The notes beneath the pieces are model-generated. The model did not search any database and was not told the DNA's origin. It saw nothing but the letters and a program-made list of their open reading frames with translations. DNA of 64,000 bases from a virus (Duplodnaviria; Caudoviricetes), in the IMG/VR virus record IMGVR_UViG_3300020577_012633, positions 1 to 64,000 of that record; one strand, given 5' to 3'. Position 1 is the stretch's first letter. The number at the start of each line of letters is the position of its first letter. This document shows positions 1,929 to 49,826 of this stretch, piece after piece. The position numbers were made by a program, and so were the translations under genes.

Positions 1929-3203
1929 TTATCCCTTCAGAACTGCAACTGGCTTCAATTCTGTTTGAATGTTTACCAGATCTTTTTGATTTTCCATAAC
2001 AGTATCAATATCTTTGTATGCGCTGCCAAGTTCGTCGTGAGCCTCTCTGACTCCGTATAGTTCCACAGAACCAAGCTGAGAGGCTTGAGAAGGATCAAGA
2101 CCTTCGGCAATACGTTTTTTAGCGGTAGTTCTGCTAAAATTTCGACCTGATCCATGAGAGCATGAGTTGAAGCTATCTGCGTTTTCTTTGCCCTTTACGA
2201 TATAGCTTTTGCTACACATAGAACCAGGAATAATACCAACTGTAGTTCTACGAGCGAGAGTAGCTCCCTTACGGTGAACCCATACATTTTGTCCAAAATG
2301 GTTTTCGATTGTTGCATAGTTGTGGTGAATGTTCACAATGTCTTTTACTGGATTCGCACCTGCCCATTTTTGTTCGCGCAGAGCTTCTTGGCAAACAATC
2401 ATCATTAGATGACGATTCACAAGAGCATACTCTTGAGCAGCTAAAAGACTTGCGATATACCATTGTCCTTCTTCAGAATCAGATGGCATAAAAGCAAGTT
2501 CTTCGTTTTCAAGACGAGTAAAATACTTGCGGCATGTCTTTACTGCAAGATGATGGAATTTCTTTGCGAGTTGCGCGCCAAGTCCACGAGATCCGCTATG
2601 CAGCATAAACCAGGCATTGCCTTCAGAGTCTTGCTGAAGTTCAATGAAATGGTTTCCTCCACCAAGGGTTCCTATTTGAACTTTTGCGCGAGACCACTCA
2701 GGATAATCTAGTGTTTTGCATATCTCTTTGGCTTGTTCAAATTTTTCTTGAACAGATTGTATTTCTCCTTTGATTCGCTCATGACCAAGCCAAATATCAC
2801 TATTTGTTCTGTTTTTTCCTTCGCCAACAGGAATATCATCTTTGATCGAAGTCATTAGCTCTCGAACGTTAAGATCTGAAACTTTAATACCTGAATTCCA
2901 CGCACACATTCCGCACCCGATATCAACGCCAACTGCGTTCGGGGAGATTGCATTAATAAGAGGCAATACTGATCCAACAGGAACTCCAAAACCTGTATGA
3001 GCATCAGGCATAAGAGCTACATGATGGAAGACGCAAGGAAGCCTTGCCGCCTGAGAGACCTGTCTTATTGCGCCTTCTTCCAAATTGAGGATTGGCTTTC
3101 CAGTTTCAGGATCTACATCCTTAGTCCAACACTTCACTGGAACTCCGCCAGTTTCTTCAGGAGGAATTACTACCGGACCAAGTTTTTCTGAAGTTGATTC
3201 CAT
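1929..3203 (-). CDS. rtcB: RtcB 3'-phosphate/2',3'-cyclic phosphate RNA ligase
   Basis: MPDAHxG, GVDIGCGM, GGGNHFIE, HSGSRG, HHNY, HRKGA and SHGSGR motifs; start at MESTSEK after AAGGA. Confidence 0.95.
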   Translation of the reverse strand: MESTSEKLGPVVIPPEETGGVPVKCWTKDVDPETGKPILNLEEGAIRQVSQAARLPCVFHHVALMPDAHTGFGVPVGSVLPLINAISPNAVGVDIGCGMCAWNSGIKVSDLNVRELMTSIKDDIPVGEGKNRTNSDIWLGHERIKGEIQSVQEKFEQAKEICKTLDYPEWSRAKVQIGTLGGGNHFIELQQDSEGNAWFMLHSGSRGLGAQLAKKFHHLAVKTCRKYFTRLENEELAFMPSDSEEGQWYIASLLAAQEYALVNRHLMMIVCQEALREQKWAGANPVKDIVNIHHNYATIENHFGQNVWVHRKGATLARRTTVGIIPGSMCSKSYIVKGKENADSFNSCSHGSGRNFSRTTAKKRIAEGLDPSQASQLGSVELYGVREAHDELGSAYKDIDTVMENQKDLVNIQTELKPVAVLKG

Positions 3204-3323
3204 TTTGTTTTCCTTACCATATTGTATAGGGCCAAATCGCACAAAAACAAGACGAGGCAGTTGTTCTCTTGTAGAATAATCGGCTAAAATAAACACTAGA
3301 CTTTTTGTTCCAAAGTCAATCAA

Positions 3324-22145: not shown

Positions 22146-23183
22146 TTATTTTAATCTAGAAAATATTACTTCTAATTTATTTACTACAATATTAACTTCT
22201 GATGACCAGCGGAATTTTTTATTACCGCCAGAAATATTTACTTTTCTAATACCTTTGATAACTGAATCTATCATTTCTTTACTTAAAGAATCATATGAAA
22301 CATCTGCTGGTTCGTCAGATACTGTTGCAAATGCTCTTCTCAGCCATTCATAAATAGTAATATCATTTGCTGTAACGAGAGCGGCGGTAGGGATTTTCAA
22401 AGCTCTCCCATGCTTTTTAGGAGCGGTATTTGTATACGCAAGAAAAAAAGTCTCATGCTTTGTCAAATCATGTAGAACTGATTCTGACAATTTTTGAGCA
22501 TTAGTTACAATCTTTGCAACTTCATTAGATTTTTGGGAACATTGAGGAAAAAGTCTTTTTAGTTCAGGAATTACTTTATGTCTAATTGCATTACGAGTAT
22601 ATTTTGTATCCTGGTTTGTTTCATCTTCATTGAATGGGATATTATTAGATTTGCAAATGTCGTATAATTCTTCTTTAGAGATCTCAAGCAATGGACGTAC
22701 AGTCGTCCAGTCATTATGAATATGACTCTCTGCGATACCAGAAAGGCCTCTTAGTCCTGATCCCCTGCACAGTTTCATTAGAATAGTTTCAAGCTGGTCA
22801 TCTGCATGATGACCAGTTGCAATAAATCTTGCTTTATGAGTTTGTGCTACACCAATAATTTTACTTTCTCTTTGGTAACGATATGTTTCTTCTGTGGGAG
22901 AAAACCCCCAGTCTCTGACATTTACGTCAACTTGCACAAAAGCAAGATTATTCGTTTCGCAATATTTCTTAACAACGTCTCTATCTTTGGATGCGTCTTT
23001 ATAGTCTCTCATATCATGCAATGCATGAACAACAACCAGATCATGTCCGGTTTTTTGCGCGCAAAAAAGTAAAGCCATTGAATCAACGCCACCTGAGCAA
23101 GCAATAATTAACTTTTCCTTTTCAGGAACAAGTCTACGCAATGCCGCTAAAATCGTATTGATCGGACCTACTGGATTGTTCAT
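22146..23183 (-). CDS. tilS: tRNA(Ile)-lysidine synthase
   Basis: PP-loop SGGVDSM, GHHADDQLET, RPLL, DETN and RNAIR. Confidence 0.9.
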   Translation of the reverse strand: MNNPVGPINTILAALRRLVPEKEKLIIACSGGVDSMALLFCAQKTGHDLVVVHALHDMRDYKDASKDRDVVKKYCETNNLAFVQVDVNVRDWGFSPTEETYRYQRESKIIGVAQTHKARFIATGHHADDQLETILMKLCRGSGLRGLSGIAESHIHNDWTTVRPLLEISKEELYDICKSNNIPFNEDETNQDTKYTRNAIRHKVIPELKRLFPQCSQKSNEVAKIVTNAQKLSESVLHDLTKHETFFLAYTNTAPKKHGRALKIPTAALVTANDITIYEWLRRAFATVSDEPADVSYDSLSKEMIDSVIKGIRKVNISGGNKKFRWSSEVNIVVNKLEVIFSRLK

Positions 23184-29862: not shown

Positions 29863-29891
29863 AAAATGCACTTTATTTGGTTATTGGTTCT

Positions 29892-29966
29892 TTACTTTGA
29901 GCGAAGAGGCTTCTTGAGGAAGTCGCTCATAACAGCAGGAGCCGAAGTATCGAAACCAACAACATC
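29892..29966 (-). pseudogene. displaced duplicate of the Ro60 3' end (24 codons plus stop)
   Basis: translates as DVVGFDTSAPAVMSDFLKKPLRSK* versus the Ro60 C-terminus DCVGFDTSAPAVMSDFIKRPLRTK*. Confidence 0.9.
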
Positions 29967-30342
29967 AACCTTGCAGGTTGCGAACAGAATCTGCCTTTTT
30001 AGCGGCAATTTGTTTTGCTACTATCCTAGAATTCAATTCAGCGTTAGCATCTCTGGTTAGATCATTGAGTAATTCTTTTTGTTTGTTCAAGAAACTCTGA
30101 TTTACCTCAACATCCTTCGGAATAAATAAACGACCTGCTAAATTTTCACCAAAGCCTTTGGTGTCAAAGAAGCATTGAGGCTCGATATTTTTGCTTCTAT
30201 GATTATTGTAGGAAACTATTCTTACTGTTACATCTTGAATCCATTTTCCATCAACATTTACACTAGACTTAACTGGTATAACAATTTCAGATTTATAGCA
30301 ATCAGCAGCGTTTGTGTTTTTTGTATCAAAAGTAAAATCCAT
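29965..30342 (-). CDS. hypothetical protein (passenger of the homing cassette)
   Basis: 125 aa; its stop codon overlaps the junction with the displaced Ro60 fragment. Confidence 0.6.
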   Translation of the reverse strand: MDFTFDTKNTNAADCYKSEIVIPVKSSVNVDGKWIQDVTVRIVSYNNHRSKNIEPQCFFDTKGFGENLAGRLFIPKDVEVNQSFLNKQKELLNDLTRDANAELNSRIVAKQIAAKKADSVRNLQG

Positions 30343-30352
30343 TCGTATACCT

Positions 30353-31144
30353 TTATATTTGAGCAGATTTATTAATCGCTTGCTTTTCTGTATCGTAAGC
30401 TCCGCCCCAAATCAACCGACCTTTCACCATCTTTTTAACAATCCATTTCTGTCGAGCATTGCACCAGCTTACGTTCTTATGCTTGGAGGTCTTATTTTGA
30501 TGCCCAGACTGGATTGAATCAAAGAGTTGCTTCTTTCTATCCAGGTATATATTAGCATCATTATACAGCCAACCTTTGAACTCTTGTAGCTGCTCATTAC
30601 CACCCCAAGCAAGACTCCATATAGATTTCTTAGGTAGTATTGAAACCTGATTGAGTCCAGCTTTTTCTATTAACAAATCTCGAACAGCTTCAAGAAAGGC
30701 TTTTGTTCCAACAAGGGTTAGAGAGTGTTCGCCTAAATGATTCCTGCAAATACACCCGTCTCCATCAAAGAAGCCTCTAATGAAGTGATGAACTAGATTG
30801 TCAGGCACCAATGAAATGACAAAAGCAGTTCCGTTTTTAGTTTTACCATTACGAATGTCTTTTTCGGCCAAATCACGGCATATCTCAACGCTACTAACAA
30901 CACAGCGTACTGTCAAGTATCGCTTGTTGGTTCGCTTGTCAATATAAGAATATGGAGAAAGCGTTGTGTCAAAGATCCTGGCAAACTTTTCAAGATGGTT
31001 GGCGTCTGTCTCCTGTAGTGTTATGCTAATTTGTTTGTTGTTTTTGTATACATACCCATCCGCGTAGAAAAAACCTAACCAGTAGGCTTTCTCTTCTGAG
31101 TCGATTGTTTGAAAGAATCTACGGTCAAATTTATGAGTGTTCAT
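30353..31144 (-). mobile_element. LAGLIDADG homing endonuclease with C-terminal AP2-like tail
   Basis: YWLGFFYADG and HFIRGFFDGDG double motifs; C-terminal SKHKNVSW...KW...GAYDTEKQA. Confidence 0.9.
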
Positions 31145-31148
31145 ATAA

Positions 31149-31195
31149 ACAAATACAGGGTATGAAGGAAATCTCCTCCATACCCTGTATTGTTT
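31149..31195 (-). promoter_or_regulatory. long hairpin immediately upstream of the LAGLIDADG start codon
   Basis: AATACAGGGTATG...CATACCCTGTATT perfect 13-bp inverted repeat. Confidence 0.6.
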
Positions 31196-31218
31196 TTCAG
31201 GTTTTTCTAGAACAACCC

Positions 31219-32859
31219 TTACTTAGTACGCAAGGGACGCTTAATGAAATCAGACATGACGGCAGGTGCGGAGGTGTCGAAGCCCACGCAATCCATCATT
31301 CCAGGATCATTAGGATCGGCAATGCTGAACGGAGTACCAGTCATGCCGCAAACAACCAACTTGGCCTCAGGCTTACGCTGGTTACGATACTGGCGAAGAG
31401 CCTCAGCAGGCTTAATGTCACCTGCCCAGGTCTCGTTGTCGGTGTAGACAAAGAAACCATCAACATCAAGCTTGTGCTTAGATGCATGAACCATAGGCAG
31501 AGAACAATCCGTTCCGCTGAATGGCAATCCTGAGATTACCTTAAGCACTCCATCAAGACGCATACGAGGACTGATCTTCAGCTCAATCAGGTCTGTTGAG
31601 AATCCTACAATATGATAGTTCTTTTCAGAACGAGCAGTTGCAAGAGCCATAACAGCCGTACCTTCGCGAGGAGTTACGAATTCCAAGCCTCCAATGCTTC
31701 CCATGCTCATTGAACCTGAAACATCCAAAGCAAGCATGATGTTCTTACCTGAAGGTTCAATAGCGTCAAATGCCATGTAAAGCATTTCATCAAGAGCATC
31801 GTTGATTTGCTGAATAGGAGTCCAGGTCAAAGAACCCTTAATGCCGCGACCTTGAGCATAAGTCTTGAGAGCAGCAAGGACTGCAATCGGGTGAATGCGA
31901 GCCTTCTTGATTGCTTCAGGATTCGTAAGACGAGCAATAACAGTCTTCAATTCGCTCGAAAGCGGCTTGAGAACGCCATATGAAGTCATACGGTTCAAGG
32001 TACGCAAGGTTGCGCCAAGAGGCATGTTAGGAAGAAGCGCAGCCCAAACCTTCGGGTCGTTGGCGACTTCCTTTGGAACCAACTCGTGAGGAAGCTGATA
32101 TTCCTCAACAATCTTAGCAACAATATTCGCGTTCGTCTGGCCCTTGATCTTGTTTGCTCCTTCGAGGATAGACAAACTCTCAGGAACCTTCTTAGGAAGT
32201 TCACCGTCCTTGGTTACATAGTTATAGATCATATTGTGAAGTTCATCACCATGAGCGTGACACTTACGCAAGAGATCTGAGTGAGACCAGGCTGACTTTG
32301 CGTTACCTTCCTCGGCTGTACGCTGAGGATACTTGACAACCTGAAGCGCAAGGCGATCAGGAGTCATACCGTTGTACCAGTTAGAGAATGCGTTACGAAG
32401 TCCTGAACCCCAGCCACGAAGACCGTCAACATAGTGAGCGAATTGGAAAAGATGAGTACCAATACGCGCAACCTTTGGAAGAGAATCAAGAGCAAGGCGG
32501 CGAGTAGGAAGATCTCCCTGAGAAGCACAGATTGCAAGCGCAAAGAGAGCAGGATCGTTCTTTGGAGCGCGACCTGAATCGCTAATCTCAACGATCTTCT
32601 GAACGGTACGAGTACCGTTTTCTGCAACGCAATCAACGACATTCTTAGCGTTGTCAAGAGCCATCTTGTGCTGAGTGCAATACATAGTTGCACCATCAGT
32701 ACCTAGGATGAGGAAGCGATCTAGGCGATCCCACTTGTCAATTTCATAAACATAACCACCTGCGTTATTCTTCACAGTGCCAGGAGTAGGGGTGGTTTGA
32801 GAAGTGACCTTTGGGGTCTTGGTAGTAATCGCTGCTGACGCCTTGCTGAACTTTGCCAT
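31219..32859 (-). CDS. rsr: Ro60/Rsr TROVE-domain RNA-binding protein with vWA domain
   Basis: NNAGG, RFLILG, RGWG, WSHxDLLR, LDVSGSM (MIDAS), GTDCSLP, YTDNETW and VGFD; start MAKF after AGGAG. Confidence 0.95.
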   Translation of the reverse strand: MAKFSKASAAITTKTPKVTSQTTPTPGTVKNNAGGYVYEIDKWDRLDRFLILGTDGATMYCTQHKMALDNAKNVVDCVAENGTRTVQKIVEISDSGRAPKNDPALFALAICASQGDLPTRRLALDSLPKVARIGTHLFQFAHYVDGLRGWGSGLRNAFSNWYNGMTPDRLALQVVKYPQRTAEEGNAKSAWSHSDLLRKCHAHGDELHNMIYNYVTKDGELPKKVPESLSILEGANKIKGQTNANIVAKIVEEYQLPHELVPKEVANDPKVWAALLPNMPLGATLRTLNRMTSYGVLKPLSSELKTVIARLTNPEAIKKARIHPIAVLAALKTYAQGRGIKGSLTWTPIQQINDALDEMLYMAFDAIEPSGKNIMLALDVSGSMSMGSIGGLEFVTPREGTAVMALATARSEKNYHIVGFSTDLIELKISPRMRLDGVLKVISGLPFSGTDCSLPMVHASKHKLDVDGFFVYTDNETWAGDIKPAEALRQYRNQRKPEAKLVVCGMTGTPFSIADPNDPGMMDCVGFDTSAPAVMSDFIKRPLRTK

Positions 32860-32872
32860 ATCAAAACTCCTT

Positions 32873-33436
32873 CTAATCGACTTCAACAGGTGTTGTTGAA
32901 GTATTCAAAACTGCCACCTCTGCTATTGAATTTGCAGATCGAGGTTCAGTATACGACTGAGCCTCATAGTGGTCAAGTATAAAATGATTGATTTCTTCTT
33001 TTGTCGGCCTCGGTGGTCTATTTATGAAATCTTCCACCGTATCCTTGAAAACAAAAATATCTTTTACTCTTACTTCTTTTCTCGGGTCAAATGGAGTAAA
33101 CCATTTTTCCTCAACATTTATTTCCATGTACCAGCTATATTGCCAATTTTCTATCGTAAATTCTCTAGGGTCTAAGAACTTTCTACCAGCTATATGAATA
33201 GCTGTAGCTCTATGAAGACCATCATGAACAAACAAAGCTCCATCTTCAAACCTGACAATCTTGATGAGATCGTCAATCTTGAGCAGTTTTGAAGTCTTTT
33301 CAATTTTCTTTTTAGGGAATATTGAAAGATTATCTTTTGTAAAGATTCCACCACTTTTAACAAAATTAACCATTTCTGGTATTTGTTCTGCGTTGCGCAG
33401 ATAATTTTGCATCGGAATGAGAGAATCTACTAGCAT
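32873..33436 (-). CDS. ParB/Srx-like fold protein
   Basis: PMQ...VHDGLHRATA resembles the ParB-N DGxHR motif; lies between the ncRNA array and rsr. Confidence 0.5.
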   Translation of the reverse strand: MLVDSLIPMQNYLRNAEQIPEMVNFVKSGGIFTKDNLSIFPKKKIEKTSKLLKIDDLIKIVRFEDGALFVHDGLHRATAIHIAGRKFLDPREFTIENWQYSWYMEINVEEKWFTPFDPRKEVRVKDIFVFKDTVEDFINRPPRPTKEEINHFILDHYEAQSYTEPRSANSIAEVAVLNTSTTPVEVD

Positions 33437-33440
33437 TTAA

Positions 33441-33564
33441 TGCGTCCGCCGGGATTCGAACCCGGACTATATCTTGGATAGAGATAACCTTTTCCTATCG
33501 ACCTGTTTTACCAGATGTGTTGTTGGTCAAGGGTTTTATGTGCTAGCCATTACACTACAGACGC
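33441..33564 (-). ncRNA. tRNA-shaped RNA with a 52-nt Y-RNA-like stem inserted between the D and anticodon arms
   Basis: acceptor GCGUCUG/CGGACGC-A; D arm GUGU-AAUGGCUA-GCAC; AC-like arm UAUCU-CUAUCCA-AGAUA; T arm CCGGG-UUCGAAU-CCCGG; insert has AACAACAC / GGUCGAUA...GGUUAUC. Confidence 0.85.
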
Positions 33565-33578
33565 CTTATTCAATTGTC

Positions 33579-33660
33579 AAAAAGAAAACTCAGGTATGGT
33601 AATAGAAGACGGTTTAACTATGATCAGATAACCGTCTTCAATCGACTGGAATCTTCTTCT
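33579..33660 (-). ncRNA. Y-RNA-like hairpin without tRNA domain
   Basis: CAGUCGAUU-GAAGACGGUU...AACCGUCUUC-UAUUACCAU-ACCUG; 10-bp perfect upper stem. Confidence 0.7.
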
Positions 33661-33661
33661 A

Positions 33662-33695
33662 AAACGGTTCTTGAAGTTGCCTTCAAAAACCGCTT
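33662..33695 (-). other. 15-bp hairpin with GCAA tetraloop between ncRNA units
   Basis: AAGCGGUUUUUGAAG-GCAA-CUUCAAGAACCGUUU. Confidence 0.7.
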
Positions 33696-33955
33696 GAATA
33701 TTTGGTTTACTGCTGTGCTTACTTAGGCCACCAAACAGTACGATGTAAGGGGTTCTCACCCTTTTTTGTCAAATCCTAAGACCTGACTTTGATCGTAAAC
33801 CGCCAAAATGCCACTTTTGACAATACCGTTCAAACCCTGGCTAGAGTCACCCTAGTCACCCGTCTACGACCTGTATAGGTTCAACACTATGCGTGTTTAC
33901 CATCGTTGCCCACTGTCCTTGAGCAATCAAGGACTTTCGAAAACCATCTATTCAA
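33694..33955 (-). ncRNA. unidentified ~262-nt multi-branched structured RNA
   Basis: closing stem UUGAAUA..UGGUUU/AAACCA..UAUUCAA plus at least five internal helices and a T-loop-like hairpin. Confidence 0.6.
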
Positions 33956-33963
33956 ATGTCAAA

Positions 33964-34026
33964 GTACCGAATATGTTGTTGAAAAAAGACGTTTTTCAGG
34001 TTAATCTTTTCTCTTCGACTCGATAC
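33964..34026 (-). ncRNA. minimal Y-RNA-like hairpin
   Basis: GUAUCGAGU-CGAA-GAGAAAAGAU...GUCUUUUUUC-AACAACAU-AUUCGGUAC. Confidence 0.7.
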
Positions 34027-34071
34027 AAATGCCTGCAAAGGCCGTCTAAGCCTAGGTCAGGAAAAAAGAAT

Positions 34072-34155
34072 CGGAAAAGGTATTAATTGGCGAACGGGTG
34101 CCTTTCGGCGTACTTGCAAATTGTAAGTTAACCGTCCATCCTTCGACCAGTTCCG
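34072..34155 (-). ncRNA. Y-RNA-like RNA with branched apex
   Basis: CGGAA..GGU-CGAA-GG.UGGACGG-UUAAC...GCC-GAAA-GGC...CCGUUCG-CC-AAUUAAU-ACC..UUCCG. Confidence 0.7.
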
Positions 34156-34205
34156 TCTTATTCTATTTTACTGAAAGTTCTTTGGTAGGCGTTTCAGTAT
34201 TTCTT

Positions 34206-34233
34206 CTATCGGCAAGAATCAAAAAGAACTTGA
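34206..34233 (-). promoter_or_regulatory. putative promoter of the ncRNA array/rsr operon (sigma28-like)
   Basis: TCAAG-N15-GCCGATAG on the minus strand, ~50 nt before the first RNA unit. Confidence 0.55.
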
Positions 34234-34250
34234 ATTCTTCCACGAATTTA

Positions 34251-35183
34251 TTATACGGCAGACAAAGAAGGGGAGTCAACAGTCCTCTCTATTTCTTGTG
34301 CTTTTTTGAGCGCAAAATCCTTGGCCTTAAACTCATAATCCAGATCTACATTATAGCCGTAAGTATTTGGAGTATATGTAGGATATTCTGCATGTTTTCT
34401 TGGATTATTTTGACCAGGAAGAGATTCGCAAAAATGAAACAAAGGTTTATAAGAACCCCAAGTCTGAGCGCAAAGCTCAAAAGCTTCTTTTTCTGTGAGT
34501 CCTCCACTATTGCAACGATGGTGCAAATAATCGAATGTTATTGGAATACCAGTAAGACTATGGATATATTCAACTAGATTGCGAGCGTTCCATATTCCTT
34601 TGTCCTCAGTCTCTACCACAAGACGGCTTTTAGCAGCCTCGTCAAGCCTCTCTAAACCATCTTTGAAGCGTTTGGCGATGTCTTTGGGGTCTCCGTTAGA
34701 ACCATTGATATGGATGTTTACAGGCGATTCTGGCGACAATGGAGAGCCAAGCTTAGACATGAACCAGCCATGATGATTCAATTCACGTATCGTGCTATCA
34801 ACTGATTTTTCATTTTTACTCGCAAGAACATTGAATTGGTCTGGATGACAAGAAAGTCTAACATGATTCAGTAAAGCTGCTTCTGCGCAACTAAGAAAAA
34901 GATTATCCAGTTCTTTTACGTTTGGAAGATTTTCCCATTTGATATTTGACTCAGGATGAGTCATAAGCGGGAAGATATCACTACTAACCCGATAGCACCA
35001 TCCATTTGCGATGCAATGAGTTAAAATTTTTCGTATAACTTTCAGATTGTTTTCGTATTTTTCTGAAAGAATAGAAAGAGCTTTATCTTCTAATTGAACG
35101 AATCGAGTCCATGTCATAGTTTGAAAACTATAACCAGACTCTTTTAGACCATTGTGAATGCAACAAAGACCTTTATTACCCAT
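34251..35183 (-). CDS. uvsE: UV damage endonuclease
   Basis: GLCC, YRVSSDIFP, RLSCHPDQF, ETED, FDYLHH and H-x-E motifs; start moved to MGNKGLCC. Confidence 0.9.
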   Translation of the reverse strand: MGNKGLCCIHNGLKESGYSFQTMTWTRFVQLEDKALSILSEKYENNLKVIRKILTHCIANGWCYRVSSDIFPLMTHPESNIKWENLPNVKELDNLFLSCAEAALLNHVRLSCHPDQFNVLASKNEKSVDSTIRELNHHGWFMSKLGSPLSPESPVNIHINGSNGDPKDIAKRFKDGLERLDEAAKSRLVVETEDKGIWNARNLVEYIHSLTGIPITFDYLHHRCNSGGLTEKEAFELCAQTWGSYKPLFHFCESLPGQNNPRKHAEYPTYTPNTYGYNVDLDYEFKAKDFALKKAQEIERTVDSPSLSAV

Positions 35184-35643
35184 TAGGTTCTTTCTTCTTT
35201 TTAATGCTTTCCATAAGAGAATCATAGGCTTGCAAATCGCTTGCAACCATAGATACAAGTGAATTATACTGTTCTGGAGCCAAATGTTCGAACAGCATTC
35301 GCCAATCTTCACAGGCTCTACTTGTGCCTTCGTATGAAGTTCCACAAGCCCAAACCGCTGTAGAAGCTTGACATGATTTATCAGGTTTTTCAGGCCAAGG
35401 ATAATCAGGGACATGTTTTTTAGCACAAAGATATGCGTTAGCAACATCGTTTTCAAGCGTTGCAAGTCTTGCCTGATCTACGTTAGCGAAATATCCACTA
35501 TTATAAACTGAATTCAAAAGAGAACATTCTTCTAGAGCTTCTCTTTCTGTATCCCATTTATTATCGCTTTGATATGGCCCTTCGCAAAACCATTTATGCC
35601 AAGAAGTTTTAACAACTTTAAATGGACTTGGACCAATAATCAT
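35176..35643 (-). CDS. hypothetical protein
   Basis: 155-aa ORF coupled to neighbours. Confidence 0.55.
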   Translation of the reverse strand: MIIGPSPFKVVKTSWHKWFCEGPYQSDNKWDTEREALEECSLLNSVYNSGYFANVDQARLATLENDVANAYLCAKKHVPDYPWPEKPDKSCQASTAVWACGTSYEGTSRACEDWRMLFEHLAPEQYNSLVSMVASDLQAYDSLMESIKKKKEPNG

Positions 35644-42868: not shown

Positions 42869-43876
42869 TTATTCGCCGGTTGCGTCATAGTCGCCGCACA
42901 TAAAGTCATCTGAAATGCACTTCAGTATAACTCTACCAATTTTCTCATCCAGTCTTTCTTTTACTGGACGAGTTACATTACCTTCTCTGATATGGTTTGC
43001 CCCATTAATCAAAGAATTTCCCTTGCTTAGTTCAATAATTTTTGCAAGACTGAACGGTCCTCTATACAATACTGGTACTATTTCTACTCCGCATGAAAAA
43101 GCCAATTGGCAAGTAGTATCCCAATCAAGATAAGAACCATCAATCATTATATCAAAAAGTCTAAAGCCTTTCGTTTCGGAAAGACCATAACGCATTTTCT
43201 TTTGAGTACCGTAAAGTTCTCCAAAAATAACAATTTGGCTTCTCGGGTCTCTTGCAAGCAAGCTACCAGCAAGAAGATTTATTTCAGGAGTTGACCAAGG
43301 AAGCCAGTGTGTAGATCCATCAATATTTTTACGCTGAACAGTCCTTCCACCAGCTACTTTTTCCCAATTTCCTTCTTCATTTAGAATAAGCCCAAGCCGG
43401 CAATTTTTGCCATGTATTTTTTCAGTAACAATAACTTCTTCATCATCTTTGAAGACTGCTGGGAAATTGCGAATATTTTCAATATCAGTATAAGTAGAAA
43501 AGAAAGGATTGCTAGGCATAGCATCCTTATCTCTAGAATCAAATGGAGGCTGATATCTGGTAATTCCAAGTTGATCTGCTACGTTGTCTCCTTCAGAGCC
43601 AACAGGATCAATAATAAGTCCAAAAGAAGGCTCATTACGGAGTCTCTTTGGGATTACTCTTCCGTTACTTAGCAATTTAGAAACACCAAGTTTTTCTGCT
43701 AGTTCAATCGGGATTATGGAATCTGGAGGAATGTATGTAACCAAATCTCCAGATTTATAGTTCCCTTTTTGTACGCAGCATTGCCAACCACCAACAACTG
43801 CCAGATCCAAACGATCTGCATTCGGGTGTGGAGAGACTTTTGTTATTTTGCAAGTCTTTACAATCGTGCTGCTCAT
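42869..43876 (-). CDS. RNA ligase, DRB0094/Rnl5-like with N-terminal tRNA-binding OB-like domain
   Basis: HPNADRL N-domain; TEKIHG, FGELYG, FDI, REG and LKCIS. Confidence 0.9.
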   Translation of the reverse strand: MSSTIVKTCKITKVSPHPNADRLDLAVVGGWQCCVQKGNYKSGDLVTYIPPDSIIPIELAEKLGVSKLLSNGRVIPKRLRNEPSFGLIIDPVGSEGDNVADQLGITRYQPPFDSRDKDAMPSNPFFSTYTDIENIRNFPAVFKDDEEVIVTEKIHGKNCRLGLILNEEGNWEKVAGGRTVQRKNIDGSTHWLPWSTPEINLLAGSLLARDPRSQIVIFGELYGTQKKMRYGLSETKGFRLFDIMIDGSYLDWDTTCQLAFSCGVEIVPVLYRGPFSLAKIIELSKGNSLINGANHIREGNVTRPVKERLDEKIGRVILKCISDDFMCGDYDATGE

Positions 43877-43912: not shown

Positions 43913-45382
43913 TCAGACAGACGAGTTTTTTGGCCTCATAAACGGGAAAGCAATTACATCTCTTACACTGGTCTGCCCAGTGAATATCATGACCAATCTA
44001 TCAATTCCAATTCCAAGACCTCCAGTTGGAGGCATACCAACCTTCAATGCTTCGATAAAATCATCATCCATAGTTCGATGAGTTGATTCTTCGTCATCAT
44101 TCGATACCTGGTTTGAAAAGACTTCGTGTTGTATTTTTGGATCATTTTGTTCTGTATAGATAGTGCCTATTTCCATTCCTCCAATGAAAAGATCAGCACG
44201 TTGAGCAAATAGCGGCTGCTCAATAATAGCTTTTGTAAGAGGAGAAATAGCGCATGGATAACCATAAACAAATGTCGGAATTGTTGGATCAATCAAAGGT
44301 TCCGCCAATTGTTCAAATCTTTTATTTGCAGAAATCAAATCATCTGCATCTTCTTGAATATTTCTTCCTGTTGCTTTCTTATATAGATGAGAATATGCAA
44401 CAACTTGGAATTTTTCATGCAAATTGATTTTATGACCATTATATTCAAAAATAAGATCATTTACTGGATCTTCAGATCTAATAATAGAAGCAACTGACCT
44501 TATTATTGTTTCTACCATAACCATTAAAGTAGAAGCATTATGGGAAGTAGAATAAGCTTCAAGTGCTGTGAACTCAGGATTGTGAGTTGCATCAATCCCC
44601 TCATTTCTGAAATTTCGATTAATCTCAAAAACATTATTCATTCCGCCAACAATCAATTTCTTCAAGTAAAGTTCGGGAGCGACTCTAAGAAAAAGAGGAA
44701 TACCAAGGGCATTCAAATGAGTTTGGAAAGGACGAGCAGCAGCTCCTCCTGCTATAGAATGCAGCATTGGAGTTTCAACTTCAGTGAAGTTTATTTCCTC
44801 AAATTCTTTGCGAAAAAGATTTATGATTTTGGAACGGGTCTTTAAAACGTTGATAAATTCGCTATTAAAAGCCATATCAAGGTAACGCTGGCGATACCTT
44901 GTTTCTACATCTTGAATTCCTGCATGCTTATCTGGAGGGTGCGACAAGCTCTTGCATGCAATAGTTACGCCATGCGCCCAAATAGTTATTTCTTGGGTTT
45001 TTGTTCTACGGATATTTCCCTGAACAGTTATAATATCTCCAAGATCAAGAAGCTTTGCAAGCTGAAATGTTTTTTCGTTAATTACATCTTTCTTACTAAT
45101 AGCAACCTGTATCTCTCCGCTTTCGTCTCTAATTTTAAGCCATATAAGACCGCCATTATCCCTTAAAAGAACAATGCGACCTTGAGCAATAGGCTTTCTA
45201 TCCTGTATATTATTAGATGATATCTGATCAGGTGTTAAAGAAGATTCAATTGAAGTAAATTGAGCAATAATTGACTTTATTGAATCAATTCCTTGAATGA
45301 CCCTGCCATAAGGATCAAAGCCAAGATCAACGATTTTAGATAGCCGATCTTGCCTTACTTTTTCCAGATCAGTGAGATTCAT
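43913..45382 (-). CDS. lysS: lysyl-tRNA synthetase, class II
   Basis: RYRQRYLD, GGAAARPF, FRNEG, HNPEF and GMPPTGGLGIGIDRL. Confidence 0.95.
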   Translation of the reverse strand: MNLTDLEKVRQDRLSKIVDLGFDPYGRVIQGIDSIKSIIAQFTSIESSLTPDQISSNNIQDRKPIAQGRIVLLRDNGGLIWLKIRDESGEIQVAISKKDVINEKTFQLAKLLDLGDIITVQGNIRRTKTQEITIWAHGVTIACKSLSHPPDKHAGIQDVETRYRQRYLDMAFNSEFINVLKTRSKIINLFRKEFEEINFTEVETPMLHSIAGGAAARPFQTHLNALGIPLFLRVAPELYLKKLIVGGMNNVFEINRNFRNEGIDATHNPEFTALEAYSTSHNASTLMVMVETIIRSVASIIRSEDPVNDLIFEYNGHKINLHEKFQVVAYSHLYKKATGRNIQEDADDLISANKRFEQLAEPLIDPTIPTFVYGYPCAISPLTKAIIEQPLFAQRADLFIGGMEIGTIYTEQNDPKIQHEVFSNQVSNDDEESTHRTMDDDFIEALKVGMPPTGGLGIGIDRLVMIFTGQTSVRDVIAFPFMRPKNSSV

Positions 45383-49058: not shown

Positions 49059-49826
49059 TTAGATACTCCAATGAACAAAATGGACAATTGATACTCCATC
49101 AGGGAGAATGTCTTTTACCTTTTTAGAAGAATCCATCACAAGAGGTTGCTCATTTAAAGCAAGTGTTGATTTGAACTTATTCAGTCCGCCTTCAACAATT
49201 TTGTCTTGGATATTCTGAGGCTTTCCTTGCGCCTTTTTAATAAAGAATTCGCGCTCATTTTGAATAAGACTATCAGGAACTTCCTCAGGCGTAATACAAA
49301 TAGGAGAAGGAGTAGTTGCAACGATATGCATAGCAATGGACTTTTTTACATCATCGCTAACTTTTCCTGAAAACAAAACAATCGAAGCTGTCTTTCGATT
49401 GTGATGAATGTAAAAAGATCCATCAGAAGCTTGAATAGTTTTATTTTCAAATTCTCTGACTACTATATTTTCTCCTGTAGAAGATCGAAGATCCTTTATA
49501 ATTGAATCATCAATTTCAGGACATTCTACAAGCTGTTGACAACCAGATATAACAGTTTGATTATTTGCAGAAAAATCTGTTTCCGTACCAATCTTGACTA
49601 TACAATATCTTATGTTACCAATTCCATATTCCAGATTAACAGCAATAAGTCCCTCTGAGCCATTATCTGGTTTTGTGGTATCAAGACTACCAAGTCTTTC
49701 ACGAAGAAGCTTTTTAGCTATATCAAAGTCGCCATTAGCGTCAATTAAAGCCTGTTTGCAATCAAGCATTGGACAATTGGTTTGAGAACGTAAATCTTTA
49801 ACGGAAAGTGCTGTGATGGTTGACAT
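49059..49826 (-). CDS. tsf: translation elongation factor Ts
   Basis: VKDLRSQT..MLDCKQAL, EGLI, ETDFSA, AMHIVA and KIVEG. Confidence 0.9.
   Translation of the reverse strand: MSTITALSVKDLRSQTNCPMLDCKQALIDANGDFDIAKKLLRERLGSLDTTKPDNGSEGLIAVNLEYGIGNIRYCIVKIGTETDFSANNQTVISGCQQLVECPEIDDSIIKDLRSSTGENIVVREFENKTIQASDGSFYIHHNRKTASIVLFSGKVSDDVKKSIAMHIVATTPSPICITPEEVPDSLIQNEREFFIKKAQGKPQNIQDKIVEGGLNKFKSTLALNEQPLVMDSSKKVKDILPDGVSIVHFVHWSI

What the first reader, a model, noticed from the sequence alone, without database searches (positions are those of the whole stretch)
31219..34233. Phage Ro60 operon led by a tandem array of architecturally different Y-RNA-like RNAs
Seen: the ~750-nt ORF-free block upstream of rsr holds four units (34072-34155, 33964-34026, 33579-33660, 33441-33564) that fold by eye into the same module. 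The module is a lower stem ending G-U, an internal loop CGA(A/U) opposite an A/C/U-rich strand (AAUUAAU, AACAACAU, UAUUACCAU, AACAACAC), and an upper stem ending (G/A)UUA. Stem sequences differ between units while pairing is kept. The apical parts differ completely: two simple loops, a branched GAAA-tetraloop domain and a whole tRNA. A fifth, 262-nt RNA is interleaved, and one candidate promoter precedes all of them. Established: bacterial Rsr binds Y RNAs carrying a GNCGAAN(0-1)G-type motif, and the second module of the RNA recruits effectors. Inference: one phage Ro60 is loaded with a set of interchangeable RNA adaptors or decoys, plausibly linked to the RNA-repair enzymes in this window.
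Basis: partly seen in the sequence, partly recalled or inferred. Interest (0 to 1): 0.92.

Follow-up and report, generated by a model that had tools for sequence, protein, structure and literature searches.

The report
Phage Ro60 operon with Y-RNA array
A giant phage carries the gene for the ring-shaped RNA-binding protein Ro60. In front of it lies a row of small partner RNAs ("Y RNAs") that share one protein-binding handle but have different heads, and one of them is an ordinary-looking tRNA whose anticodon arm has been replaced by the handle, a layout I did not find described.

Summary
All four units carry the same handle, GUCGA(A/U)-N8-10-(G/A)UUA(A/U)C. The window holds 4 such hits against 0.16 expected by chance, and all four lie in the array.

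A covariance model of the handle finds 50 copies in 27 sources (the window and 26 related phage loci). Every copy is on the rsr strand, and 15 of 16 base pairs show compensatory changes. These are therefore very probably Ro60-binding Y RNAs, upstream of a bona fide rsr gene (TROVE + vWA). Binding itself is untested.

Y-RNA rows next to rsr are already known from D. radiodurans, Salmonella, M. smegmatis and Thermus phage phiLo. I also find three unannotated units in mycobacteriophage Catera.

Three things look new:
- **Unit 4 is a homolog of YrlA in normal tRNA gene order.** The acceptor stem is open, the Ro60 handle is closed by a loop, and the 15:48 Levitt pair covaries in 13 of 13 sequences. 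The class recurs beside rsr in many phages and bacteria.
- **The rsr leader holds a half-handle next to the ribosome-binding site.** It is a hairpin followed by GUCGA(A/U), 2-8 nt before the Shine-Dalgarno sequence, in at least 13 loci. This suggests that Ro60 represses its own translation.
- **A structured RNA of about 290 nt sits inside the array.** It is conserved in only one other locus.

The adaptor-set function is inferred, not shown. The scan has noted similar phage Ro60-like/Y-like RNA arrays before on other DNA.

The parts
34250..34279 (-). Sigma-70-like promoter of the RNA array (TTGACT-18 nt-TATAAT)
   Evidence: 11 of 12 matches to consensus. A comparable -35/-10 pair sits at the same relative place in L002, L003, L006, L007 and L011.
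34160..34243 (-). Conserved 5' leader of the primary transcript. It holds ATTCAAGTT, then GCCGAUAGA (34205-34213), then a hairpin whose loop is CGCCUACCAA.
   Evidence: The sequence blocks are conserved in six loci while the hairpin stem varies. RNAalifold gave no consensus fold on the MAFFT alignment. Function unknown.
34072..34155 (-). Y RNA unit 1. The handle is GGUCGAAGG...GGUUAAC, and the distal part is a three-way junction with a GAAA-tetraloop hairpin.
   Evidence: Fold. R1 scores it 13.3 bits over its full length. Orthologs in five loci keep the handle and a GNRA hairpin with compensated stems.
33965..34025 (-). Y RNA unit 2, a simple stem-loop Y RNA of the YrlB/Yrn2 type
   Evidence: R1 61.3 bits, but it was a seed of that model. 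Covariation.
33661..33950 (-). Unidentified structured RNA of about 290 nt. It has a closing helix UGGUUU/AAACCA followed by UCGAAAG, a long-range helix GGUCGUAGAC/GUUUACGAUC, and a terminator-like hairpin at 33661-33693.
   Evidence: Folding z-score -5.5. Homolog only in L007 3146-3432, with 18 of 70 pairs compensated. No Rfam match at E<=10. No further homologs in the other loci fetched.
33588..33652 (-). Y RNA unit 3, a simple stem-loop Y RNA (handle GUCGAUUG...GGUUAUC). An extended lower stem may reach 33579-33660.
   Evidence: R1 55.4 bits, but it was a seed of that model. Folding z-score -4.2.
33441..33564 (-). Y RNA unit 4, a tRNA-topology (non-permuted) YrlA homolog. The order is acceptor 5' strand, D arm, handle 3' strand, loop GUAAAA, handle 5' strand (GGUCGAUAG), GGUUAUC, V arm, T arm, acceptor 3' strand, then discriminator A. 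No CCA is encoded.
   Evidence: Rfam tRNA 43 bits with a 65-nt insert. R2 102.9 bits (it was a seed). Acceptor, D and T helices are 100% paired with compensatory changes. Levitt pair covaries 13 of 13. No RF02553 match.
32873..33412 (-). Conserved 179-aa ORF between the array and rsr, with a ParB/sulfiredoxin-like fold (motif DGLHR). The ORF call reaches 33436, but homologs start at the second ATG.
   Evidence: No Pfam or PHROG hit. It has 15 homologs, found in phage-like contigs. It occupies the same position in at least 13 rsr loci. AF2 pLDDT 87; the weak Foldseek hits are ParB/Srx-fold proteins.
32867..32908 (-). rsr leader element. AAUA precedes a 9-bp hairpin (ACUUCAACA/UGUUGAAGU), then CGAU, then the Shine-Dalgarno AAGGAG (32867-32872). 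It is a loop-closed half of the Y-RNA handle.
   Evidence: The same hairpin plus G(U/C)CGA(A/U/C) lies just before the rsr SD in L002, 3, 6, 7, 8, 9, 11, 12, 14, 20, 21, 22 and 23. The stem is 94% paired, with 5 of 8 pairs compensated.
31219..32859 (-). rsr, the Ro60 ortholog (546 aa)
   Evidence: Pfam TROVE and vWA_Ro60. A graded series of homologs from 86% down to 40% identity, many on 100-500 kb contigs.

Best explanation
This is the Ro60 ribonucleoprotein operon of a very large uncultured phage.

**Transcription and processing.**
- One sigma-70-type promoter, lying in the end of the upstream uvdE gene, drives a polycistronic non-coding transcript.
- That transcript is cut into four Y RNAs plus one larger structured RNA. 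Cutting is presumably done by host tRNA-processing enzymes, RNase P at unit 4 and RNase E-type cuts in the U/A-rich spacers.
- Transcription reads on into a ParB/Srx-like gene and rsr.

**Binding (inferred).**
- Each Y RNA would bind Ro60 through the same handle: a lower stem ending G-U/C, a CGA(A/U) loop opposite an A/C-rich 7-9-nt strand ending ACAU, and a 9-10-bp upper stem ending GGUUA(A/U)C.
- The distal parts differ: two small loops, a three-way junction with a GNRA loop, and a full tRNA body.
- One Ro60 ring could therefore be assembled into several particles with different partners or gating properties, as the published tether-and-gate model proposes.

**Unit 4.**
- It is a YrlA homolog whose gene is in ordinary tRNA order.
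- After end-processing it should be a one-piece L-shaped RNA with a free, CCA-extendable acceptor end and a loop-closed Ro60 arm where the anticodon arm would be.

**Feedback (inferred).** A loop-closed half-handle abuts the rsr Shine-Dalgarno sequence. It most likely lets Ro60 that is not occupied by Y RNA repress its own translation.

**Shown:** sequence, folds, covariation, synteny and homology. **Inferred:** transcription unit, processing, Ro60 binding, partner diversity and autoregulation.
For: **Protein.** Real Ro60 gene.

**Handle.**
- Motif enrichment of 4 hits against 0.16 expected.
- Covariation in 13 of 16 pairs and 15 of 16 pairs.
- All 50 model hits lie on the rsr strand, nearly all within 2.5 kb upstream of rsr.
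- The motif matches the published GNCGAAN0-1G and the 'YUAY begins the V loop' feature (PMC4201824).
- The Rfam nematode stem-bulge RNA model (RF01656; from my own knowledge these RNAs are Y-RNA homologs, not checked here) hits related units at its gathering score.

**Unit 4 and YrlA.**
- Catera's canonical YrlA carries the same handle, V arm and linker, but in permuted order.
- Unit 4's tRNA frame is 100% paired with compensation, and the 15:48 pair covaries 13 of 13.
- The class recurs beside rsr in phages, in bacteria and in about 27 of 80 metagenome loci.

**Operon.**
- The promoter is positionally conserved.
- A further Y unit in the same genome sits directly 5' of a tRNA-Ala gene, which suggests co-processing with tRNAs.

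**Leader.** The half-handle is conserved, with compensated stems, next to the SD in at least 13 loci, whether or not that stretch is coding.

**Precedents.**
- Polycistronic Yrn2-tRNA-Yrn1, and RNase P/CCA processing of M. smegmatis YrlA.
- Phage phiLo Ro60 binds two upstream Yrl RNAs and host PNPase.
Against: - There are no expression, processing or binding data. The phage is uncultured and only about 24% of its genome is in the record.
- Units 3 and 4 have CGAU, not the published CGAA.
- The Rfam YrlA and Y_RNA models do not hit any unit at E<=10.
- In unit 4 and its closest relatives the lower stem is only 3-5 bp, and an alternative pairing (GGUCGA with UUGACC) is possible.
- The upper stem of the unit-4 class is only 61% paired on my alignment.
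- No partner for any distal module is known. No PNPase, RNase PH or CCA-adding enzyme is encoded in the 123-kb record.
- The leader hairpin could instead be a processing or stability element. It overlaps the 3' end of the upstream ORF in several loci.
Confidence: 0.75

Rival explanations
1. The RNAs are mainly sponges or decoys, not adaptors. They would keep Ro60's cavity gated shut. Alternatively the anticodon-less tRNA body would soak up host tRNA-targeting defence nucleases or tRNA-binding enzymes, and the different heads would reflect drift rather than different partners.
For: - Y RNA is known to block substrate access to Ro60.
- Unit 4 keeps every tRNA elbow feature but has no anticodon loop to cut.
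- The phage invests heavily in tRNA and translation genes: tRNAs, an aaRS, EF-Ts, a TilS-like gene, RtcB and an Rnl ligase.
- Apical parts are poorly conserved between loci.
Against: - Orthologous units keep their own head type across loci that share only 62-78% Ro60 identity. Examples are the GNRA hairpin of unit 1 and the tRNA body of unit 4. This argues for selection on the heads.
- Published cases show tethering to PNPase.
Confidence: 0.17
2. Unit 4 is a working tRNA gene interrupted by a 52-nt insert between the D arm and the anticodon arm. Once the insert is removed, the stem-loop UAUCU-CUAUCCA-AGAUA acts as an anticodon arm (anticodon AUC).
For: - The Rfam tRNA model scores 43 bits.
- A 5-bp stem with a 7-nt loop, followed by a 4-nt variable region, lies exactly where an anticodon arm would be.
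Against: - Position 37 would be C rather than a purine.
- The loop varies in length and sequence among orthologs, and it aligns with the V arm of canonical YrlA.
- I know of no bacterial mechanism that excises an insert at position 26/27 (from my own knowledge).
- The insert carries the conserved, covarying Ro60 handle.
- ARAGORN does not call it a tRNA.
Confidence: 0.03
3. The units are cis-acting structures of a long mRNA leader (attenuators, RNase sites or stabilisers) and do not bind Ro60.
For: - They lie between a promoter and two protein genes.
- A terminator-like hairpin sits in the middle of the array.
Against: - The handle is shared with experimentally bound Y RNAs.
- It occurs downstream of rsr in some loci (L012, L171) and 80 kb away from rsr in this same genome.
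- The same units are interleaved with genuine tRNA genes in L008.
Confidence: 0.03

Closest known systems
YrlA (bacterial and mycobacteriophage Y RNA-like A; Rfam RF02553; Chen et al. 2014 PMC4201824; Wang et al. 2018, bioRxiv 10.1101/312249)
   Same: - It has the same parts as unit 4: a GNCGA-type Ro60 handle, YUAY leading into a V arm, T arm, acceptor stem, D arm, and a linker of the GCUAAAAC type.
- The tRNA tertiary signature is the same (U8, A14, the covarying 15:48 pair, a UUCGAAU T loop).
- It is likewise encoded next to rsr on the same strand.
   Different: - Published YrlA is a circularly permuted tRNA. Its RNA ends lie in the Ro60 stem, its acceptor stem is closed by a loop, and it has no free CCA end.
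- Unit 4 has the opposite connectivity.
- RF02553 matches the Catera RNA but not unit 4, and the tRNA model does the reverse.
[quoted passage not shown] 2014)
   Same: The mature particle would have the same shape: a 7-bp acceptor stem with a free 3' end and a Ro60-binding arm in the anticodon position.
   Different: There the shape arises by cutting a permuted precursor into two base-paired halves. Here the gene order would give it as one continuous chain with a loop-closed Ro60 arm.
D. radiodurans Yrn2-tRNA(Asp)-Yrn1 cluster; Salmonella and M. smegmatis YrlA/YrlB; Thermus phage phiLo Yrl1/Yrl2 (PMC12135203)
   Same: - Several different Y RNAs are encoded in a row upstream of rsr and made from one precursor.
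- One is tRNA-like and the others are simple hairpins with small loops.
   Different: - Those cases have two Y RNAs bound by Ro60, and up to five small RNAs upstream of rsr in Deinococcus.
- Here there are four units, a 290-nt RNA and a further unit elsewhere in the genome. Relatives reach seven or eight units, and in L008 they are interleaved with tRNA genes.
- The ParB/Srx-like gene and the leader half-handle have no counterpart in those reports.
Metazoan Y RNAs and nematode stem-bulge RNAs (Rfam RF00019, RF01656)
   Same: - The handle resembles human Y4 RNA as I recall it (GGUCCGAUGGUAGUGGGUUAUC), with the same 8-nt spacing. This is from memory and was not tested here.
- RF01656 hits related units at its gathering score.
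   Different: There is no bulged C. RF00019 does not match. The units are transcribed as an operon rather than as single Pol III genes.
Autogenous translational control by RNA mimicry (E. coli thrS operator; ribosomal-protein operons). Cited from my own knowledge.
   Same: A copy of the protein's natural RNA ligand placed at the ribosome-binding site of its own mRNA.
   Different: It is purely inferred here, and I found no report of it for any Ro60.

Membership tests
Bacterial Y RNA (Ro60/Rsr ligand) | Encoded within a few kb of rsr on the same strand | tested here: met
   The units lie 0.6-1.3 kb upstream of rsr on the minus strand. All 50 R1 hits in 27 sources are on the rsr strand.
Bacterial Y RNA (Ro60/Rsr ligand) | GNCGAAN0-1G motif in the 5' strand of the Ro60-binding stem | tested here: inconclusive
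   Units 1 and 2 have GUCGAAG, an exact match. Units 3 and 4 have GUCGAUUG and GUCGAUAG, with U at the sixth position. Across relatives that position varies among A, U and C.
Bacterial Y RNA (Ro60/Rsr ligand) | Long stem formed by the 5' and 3' ends that contains the binding site, plus a distal module | tested here: met
   Met for units 1-3. Not met for unit 4, whose ends form the acceptor stem.
Bacterial Y RNA (Ro60/Rsr ligand) | Physical binding to Ro60, and stability that depends on Ro60 | not testable with these tools
   Needs RIP or EMSA.
YrlA (RF02553) | tRNA-like module with D, T, V and acceptor elements and tRNA tertiary pairs | tested here: met
   Helices are 100% paired with compensatory changes. 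U8 and A14 are invariant, and 15:48 is A:U in 6 and G:C in 7 sequences.
YrlA (RF02553) | Circularly permuted order (Ro60 strand, V, T, loop-closed acceptor, D, Ro60 strand) with no free acceptor end | tested here: not met
   Unit 4 runs acceptor, D, handle, V, T, acceptor. RF02553 gives no hit at E<=10 in 33300-34400 but hits the Catera control.
tRNA | Anticodon arm with a 7-nt loop, U33 and purine 37; called by tRNA finders | tested here: not met
   ARAGORN makes no call. The Rfam tRNA hit needs a 65-nt insert. The only candidate loop has C at position 37 and is not conserved.
Ro60/Rsr protein | TROVE HEAT-repeat ring plus a C-terminal vWA domain | tested here: met
   PF05731 at 6e-33 and PF25045 at 1e-60.

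The most novel reading that the evidence does not exclude
**Origin of YrlA.**
- The tRNA-order YrlA would be the ancestral form: a tRNA whose anticodon arm became a Ro60 handle.
- Tandem duplication in arrays like this one would then have produced the published permuted form.

**Function of unit 4.**
- With its free acceptor end, the mature RNA would receive CCA and engage tRNA-handling machinery such as CCA-adding enzyme, a synthetase, EF-Tu or RtcB.
- This would physically couple Ro60 to tRNA surveillance or repair during infection.

**Dosing.** Ro60 levels would be set by a Y-RNA-mimic operator at its own ribosome-binding site.
Probability: 0.2. Interest if true: 0.8.

Novelty: new variant of a known kind. 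Interest (0 to 1): 0.57.

Why it matters
- **An open question becomes testable.** The partner and purpose of the tRNA-like domain of bacterial Y RNAs have been unknown since 2014. A natural version with an open, tRNA-type acceptor end, widespread beside rsr in phages and bacteria, gives a direct test. One can ask whether the domain is handled like a tRNA: RNase P cleavage, CCA addition, charging, EF-Tu binding.
- **A concrete evolutionary route.** It fits the 'dimeric tRNA' origin proposed by Wang et al. 2018.
- **Possible Ro60 dosage control.** If it works as proposed, the leader half-handle would be, as far as I found, the first sign that Ro60 controls its own synthesis by RNA mimicry.
- **Comparative material.** The phage arrays, with up to eight units sharing one handle under different heads, help define what Ro60 recognises and which heads recruit which partners.
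- **Annotation.** These RNAs are unannotated even in cultured phages (Catera, Cashline).

Tried and rejected
**Tools and papers not available**
- The 2018 and 2020 Wolin-lab reviews and the supplements of Chen 2014 are not held. I therefore cannot exclude that tRNA-order YrlA variants are listed there.

**Searches that found nothing useful**
- A single-protein peptide scan of viral contigs found nothing. The profile scan worked.
- DNA similarity to cultured phages gave only short rsr matches.
- For the 290-nt RNA, the strict pattern found only the L007 contig. A looser 14-base pattern returned about 120 stretches, and nhmmer confirmed none beyond the known L007 contig.
- The other rsr loci fetched also hold no homolog of the 290-nt RNA. 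Rfam at E<=10 gives nothing.
- A regex scan for a hairpin followed by GNCGA across all loci was too permissive in GC-rich DNA. I used it only for the positions just before rsr.

**Analyses that gave no clear result**
- RNAalifold on the conserved 5' leader gave no structure.
- RNAalifold paired UGACC with GGUCG in unit 4. I kept this only as an alternative, because L008 and all the simple units support the stem-loop-stem handle.
- The ParB/Srx-like ORF has no Pfam or PHROG hit, and its Foldseek hits are weak (best E about 0.01).

**Readings rejected**
- Unit 4 as an intron-containing tRNA.
- The units as terminators or REP-like repeats.

Full report
**What the window is.** It is the first 64 kb of a 123-kb IMG/VR virus record that CheckV estimates to be 24% complete, so the full phage would be several hundred kb.
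- It carries DNA gyrase, a class II aminoacyl-tRNA synthetase, EF-Ts, a TilS-like PP-loop enzyme, NAMPT, an Rnl-type RNA ligase, RtcB and several tRNAs.
- The gene at 31219-32859 (minus strand) is a bona fide Ro60/Rsr with TROVE and Ro60-vWA domains.
- Its relatives form a graded series from 86% down to about 40% identity, many of them on contigs of 100-500 kb.

- The pattern GTCGAW-N8-10-RTTAWC occurs four times in the window, all on the minus strand between 33483 and 34147. Shuffles give 0.16.
- Upstream of rsr in related phage loci the same motif recurs 2-7 times per locus on the rsr strand. A simple pairing search already showed fully compensated stems around a constant CGA(A/U) loop and a 3' strand ending ACAU or ACUU.
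- On 13 simple units, 91.6% of cells are paired against about 42% when partners are slid, and 13 of 16 pairs have compensatory changes.
- A covariance model built from them (R1) finds 50 matches in 27 sources (the window and 26 phage loci). All are on the rsr strand, and nearly all lie within 2.5 kb upstream. In the resulting alignment 15 of 16 pairs covary.
- Window units 2 and 3 score 61 and 55 bits, but both were seeds of the model. Unit 1 was not a seed and scores 13 bits over its full length.
- Unit 1 has orthologs in five loci that keep the handle and a GNRA-capped hairpin.

**What it is.**
- The handle matches published bacterial Y RNAs. It has the GNCGAAN0-1G motif, thought to be read by Ro60, and a YUAY at the top of the stem (Chen et al. 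2014).
- Rfam's nematode stem-bulge RNA model hits related units at its gathering score. From my own knowledge these RNAs are Y-RNA homologs.
- Rows of different Y RNAs next to rsr are known: Yrn2-tRNA-Yrn1 in Deinococcus, YrlA/YrlB in Salmonella and M. smegmatis, and Yrl1/Yrl2 of Thermus phage phiLo.
- R1 also finds three units upstream of the Ro gene of mycobacteriophage Catera: a simple one, a canonical YrlA and another simple one. None is annotated.
- The array as such is therefore a new member of a known kind.

**Unit 4 is the unusual one.**
- Rfam calls it a tRNA with a 65-nt insert. ARAGORN does not call it.
- Aligned with relatives, the acceptor, D and T helices are 100% paired with many compensatory changes. 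U8 and A14 are invariant. The tertiary 15:48 pair is A:U in six sequences and G:C in seven, with no exception.
- Its elements run in this order: acceptor 5' strand, D arm, handle 3' strand, closing loop, handle 5' strand, GGUUAUC, V arm, T arm, acceptor 3' strand.
- Catera's YrlA has the same elements, even a similar D-arm linker. Its order is handle 5' strand, V, T, loop-closed acceptor, D, handle 3' strand. That is the published 'circularly permuted tRNA without a free CCA end'.
- RF02553 hits the Catera RNA but nothing in the window array.
- Unit 4 is thus a YrlA homolog in un-permuted tRNA order.
- A model of this class (R2) finds high-scoring 115-145-nt matches on the rsr strand in several settings:
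  - other phage loci, up to four per locus;
  - the cultured Gordonia phage Cashline;
  - bacteria, including five in a row in the Desulfonema magnum chromosome;
  - about 27 of 80 metagenomic rsr loci.
- I found no description of this form in the papers I could search, but the key reviews and supplements are not held.
[quoted passage not shown] Here the gene order would deliver it as one chain.

**The rsr leader.**
- In the window, the sequence just before the Shine-Dalgarno reads AAUA, a 9-bp hairpin, GU (the last two stem bases), CGAU, then AAGGAG.
- This is the loop-closed lower half of the handle as it appears in unit 4 (AACAACAC-AUCUG-loop-CAGGU-CGAU).
- The same arrangement, with different and compensated stems, precedes rsr in at least 13 phage loci. 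It is there whether that stretch is non-coding or overlaps the end of the upstream ORF.
- In four of five genomes that have both, the leader and the unit-4-type RNA share the same fourth loop base (read).
- I read this as a candidate operator for autogenous translational repression by Y-RNA-free Ro60. This is inference only.

**Other parts.**
- **The 290-nt RNA.**
  - It is strongly structured and conserved with compensated helices only in L007, where it replaces units 3 and 4.
  - Its closing helix is followed by (U/A)CGAAA, a weak echo of the handle. Its identity is unknown.
- **Promoters.** A sigma-70-like promoter is found at the same place in six loci. It is followed by a conserved leader holding GCCGAUAGA and a hairpin with loop CGCCUACCAA.
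- **The conserved ORF.** A ParB/Srx-fold ORF lies between the array and rsr in at least 13 loci. uvdE lies upstream in several.
- **An extra Y unit.** One more sits 80 kb away, directly 5' of a tRNA-Ala gene. This fits processing together with tRNAs.

**Verdict.**
- The 'set of adaptors' reading is reasonable and in line with the literature, but untested.
- The RNA-repair link is only co-occurrence in the same genome.
- Novelty lies in the un-permuted YrlA class, the leader half-handle and the unknown 290-nt RNA.
- Earlier reports of this scan described comparable arrays beside divergent Ro60-like genes in other phages.
- First-reader notes on this same window had already flagged unit 4, the 262-nt RNA, the ParB/Srx ORF and the homing-endonuclease cassette.

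Noticed in passing
window 29889-31296 (minus strand): The last 24 codons of rsr are duplicated at 29892-29966 (DVVGFDTSAPAVMSDFLKKPLRSK* against MDCVGFDTSAPAVMSDFIKRPLRTK*). A LAGLIDADG/HNH endonuclease gene (30353-31144) lies between the copies. This looks like a homing-endonuclease insertion that brought its own replacement 3' end. L002 has a 76%-identical endonuclease downstream of rsr.
   Followed up: partly
window 32873-33412 (minus strand): A 179-aa ORF between the array and rsr carries a DGLHR motif, has no SD and has no Pfam or PHROG hit. AF2 pLDDT is 87, and its weak structural matches are all ParB/sulfiredoxin-fold proteins (2hwj, KorB, Srx, Noc, serine kinase). It holds the same position in at least 13 rsr loci, so it may be a component of the Ro60 system.
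   Followed up: partly
own genome G000:C1:114025-114089 (minus strand; outside the window), locus L177: A fifth handle-bearing Y RNA unit (R1 59 bits) lies 80 kb from rsr inside a tRNA cluster. It ends a few bases before tRNA-Ala(CGC).
   Followed up: partly
window 34251-35465 (minus strand): A UV-damage endonuclease gene (UvdE) lies directly upstream of the array, and the array promoter sits in its last codons. The uvdE-array-rsr order is conserved in L002, L003, L006, L179 and L181. It recalls the UV induction of Rsr and Y RNAs in Deinococcus.
   Followed up: partly
window 34160-34243 (minus strand): The conserved transcript leader holds GCCGAUAGA (a handle-like motif after a GG...CC hairpin) and a hairpin with the invariant loop CGCCUACCAA. 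CUACCAA is complementary to the common tRNA D-loop sequence UUGGUAG (from my own knowledge of tRNA sequences; not tested here). Function unknown.
   Followed up: partly
window 33565-33580 and 33951-33966 (minus strand); also L002, L003, L006, L007: The motif UUGACA(A/U)UUGAAUA(A/G) immediately precedes both unit 4 and the 290-nt RNA, in the window and in its relatives. It may be a processing signal or a shared 5' leader.
   Followed up: no
L153 (Mycobacterium phage Catera) 2530-2875; L154 (Gordonia phage Cashline) 2704-2841: Cultured phages carry unannotated Y RNAs upstream of Ro. Catera has three in a row, with a canonical YrlA in the middle. Cashline has a tRNA-order YrlA.
   Followed up: partly
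L155 (Desulfonema magnum chromosome) 1403-2268; L029 1342-1757; L008 1396-3323: - Desulfonema has five tandem tRNA-order YrlA-like RNAs upstream of rsr.
- L029 has three.
- L008 interleaves at least seven handle-bearing units with six ordinary tRNA genes.
   Followed up: partly
window 1929-3323, 42869-43876, 43913-45382, 49059-49826, 22146-23183: RNA-repair and translation genes lie elsewhere in the window: RtcB, an Rnl-type RNA ligase, a class II (Asp/Lys/Asn-type) tRNA synthetase, EF-Ts and a TilS-like PP-loop enzyme. No CCA-adding enzyme or RNase PH/PNPase domain was found in the 123-kb record.
   Followed up: partly
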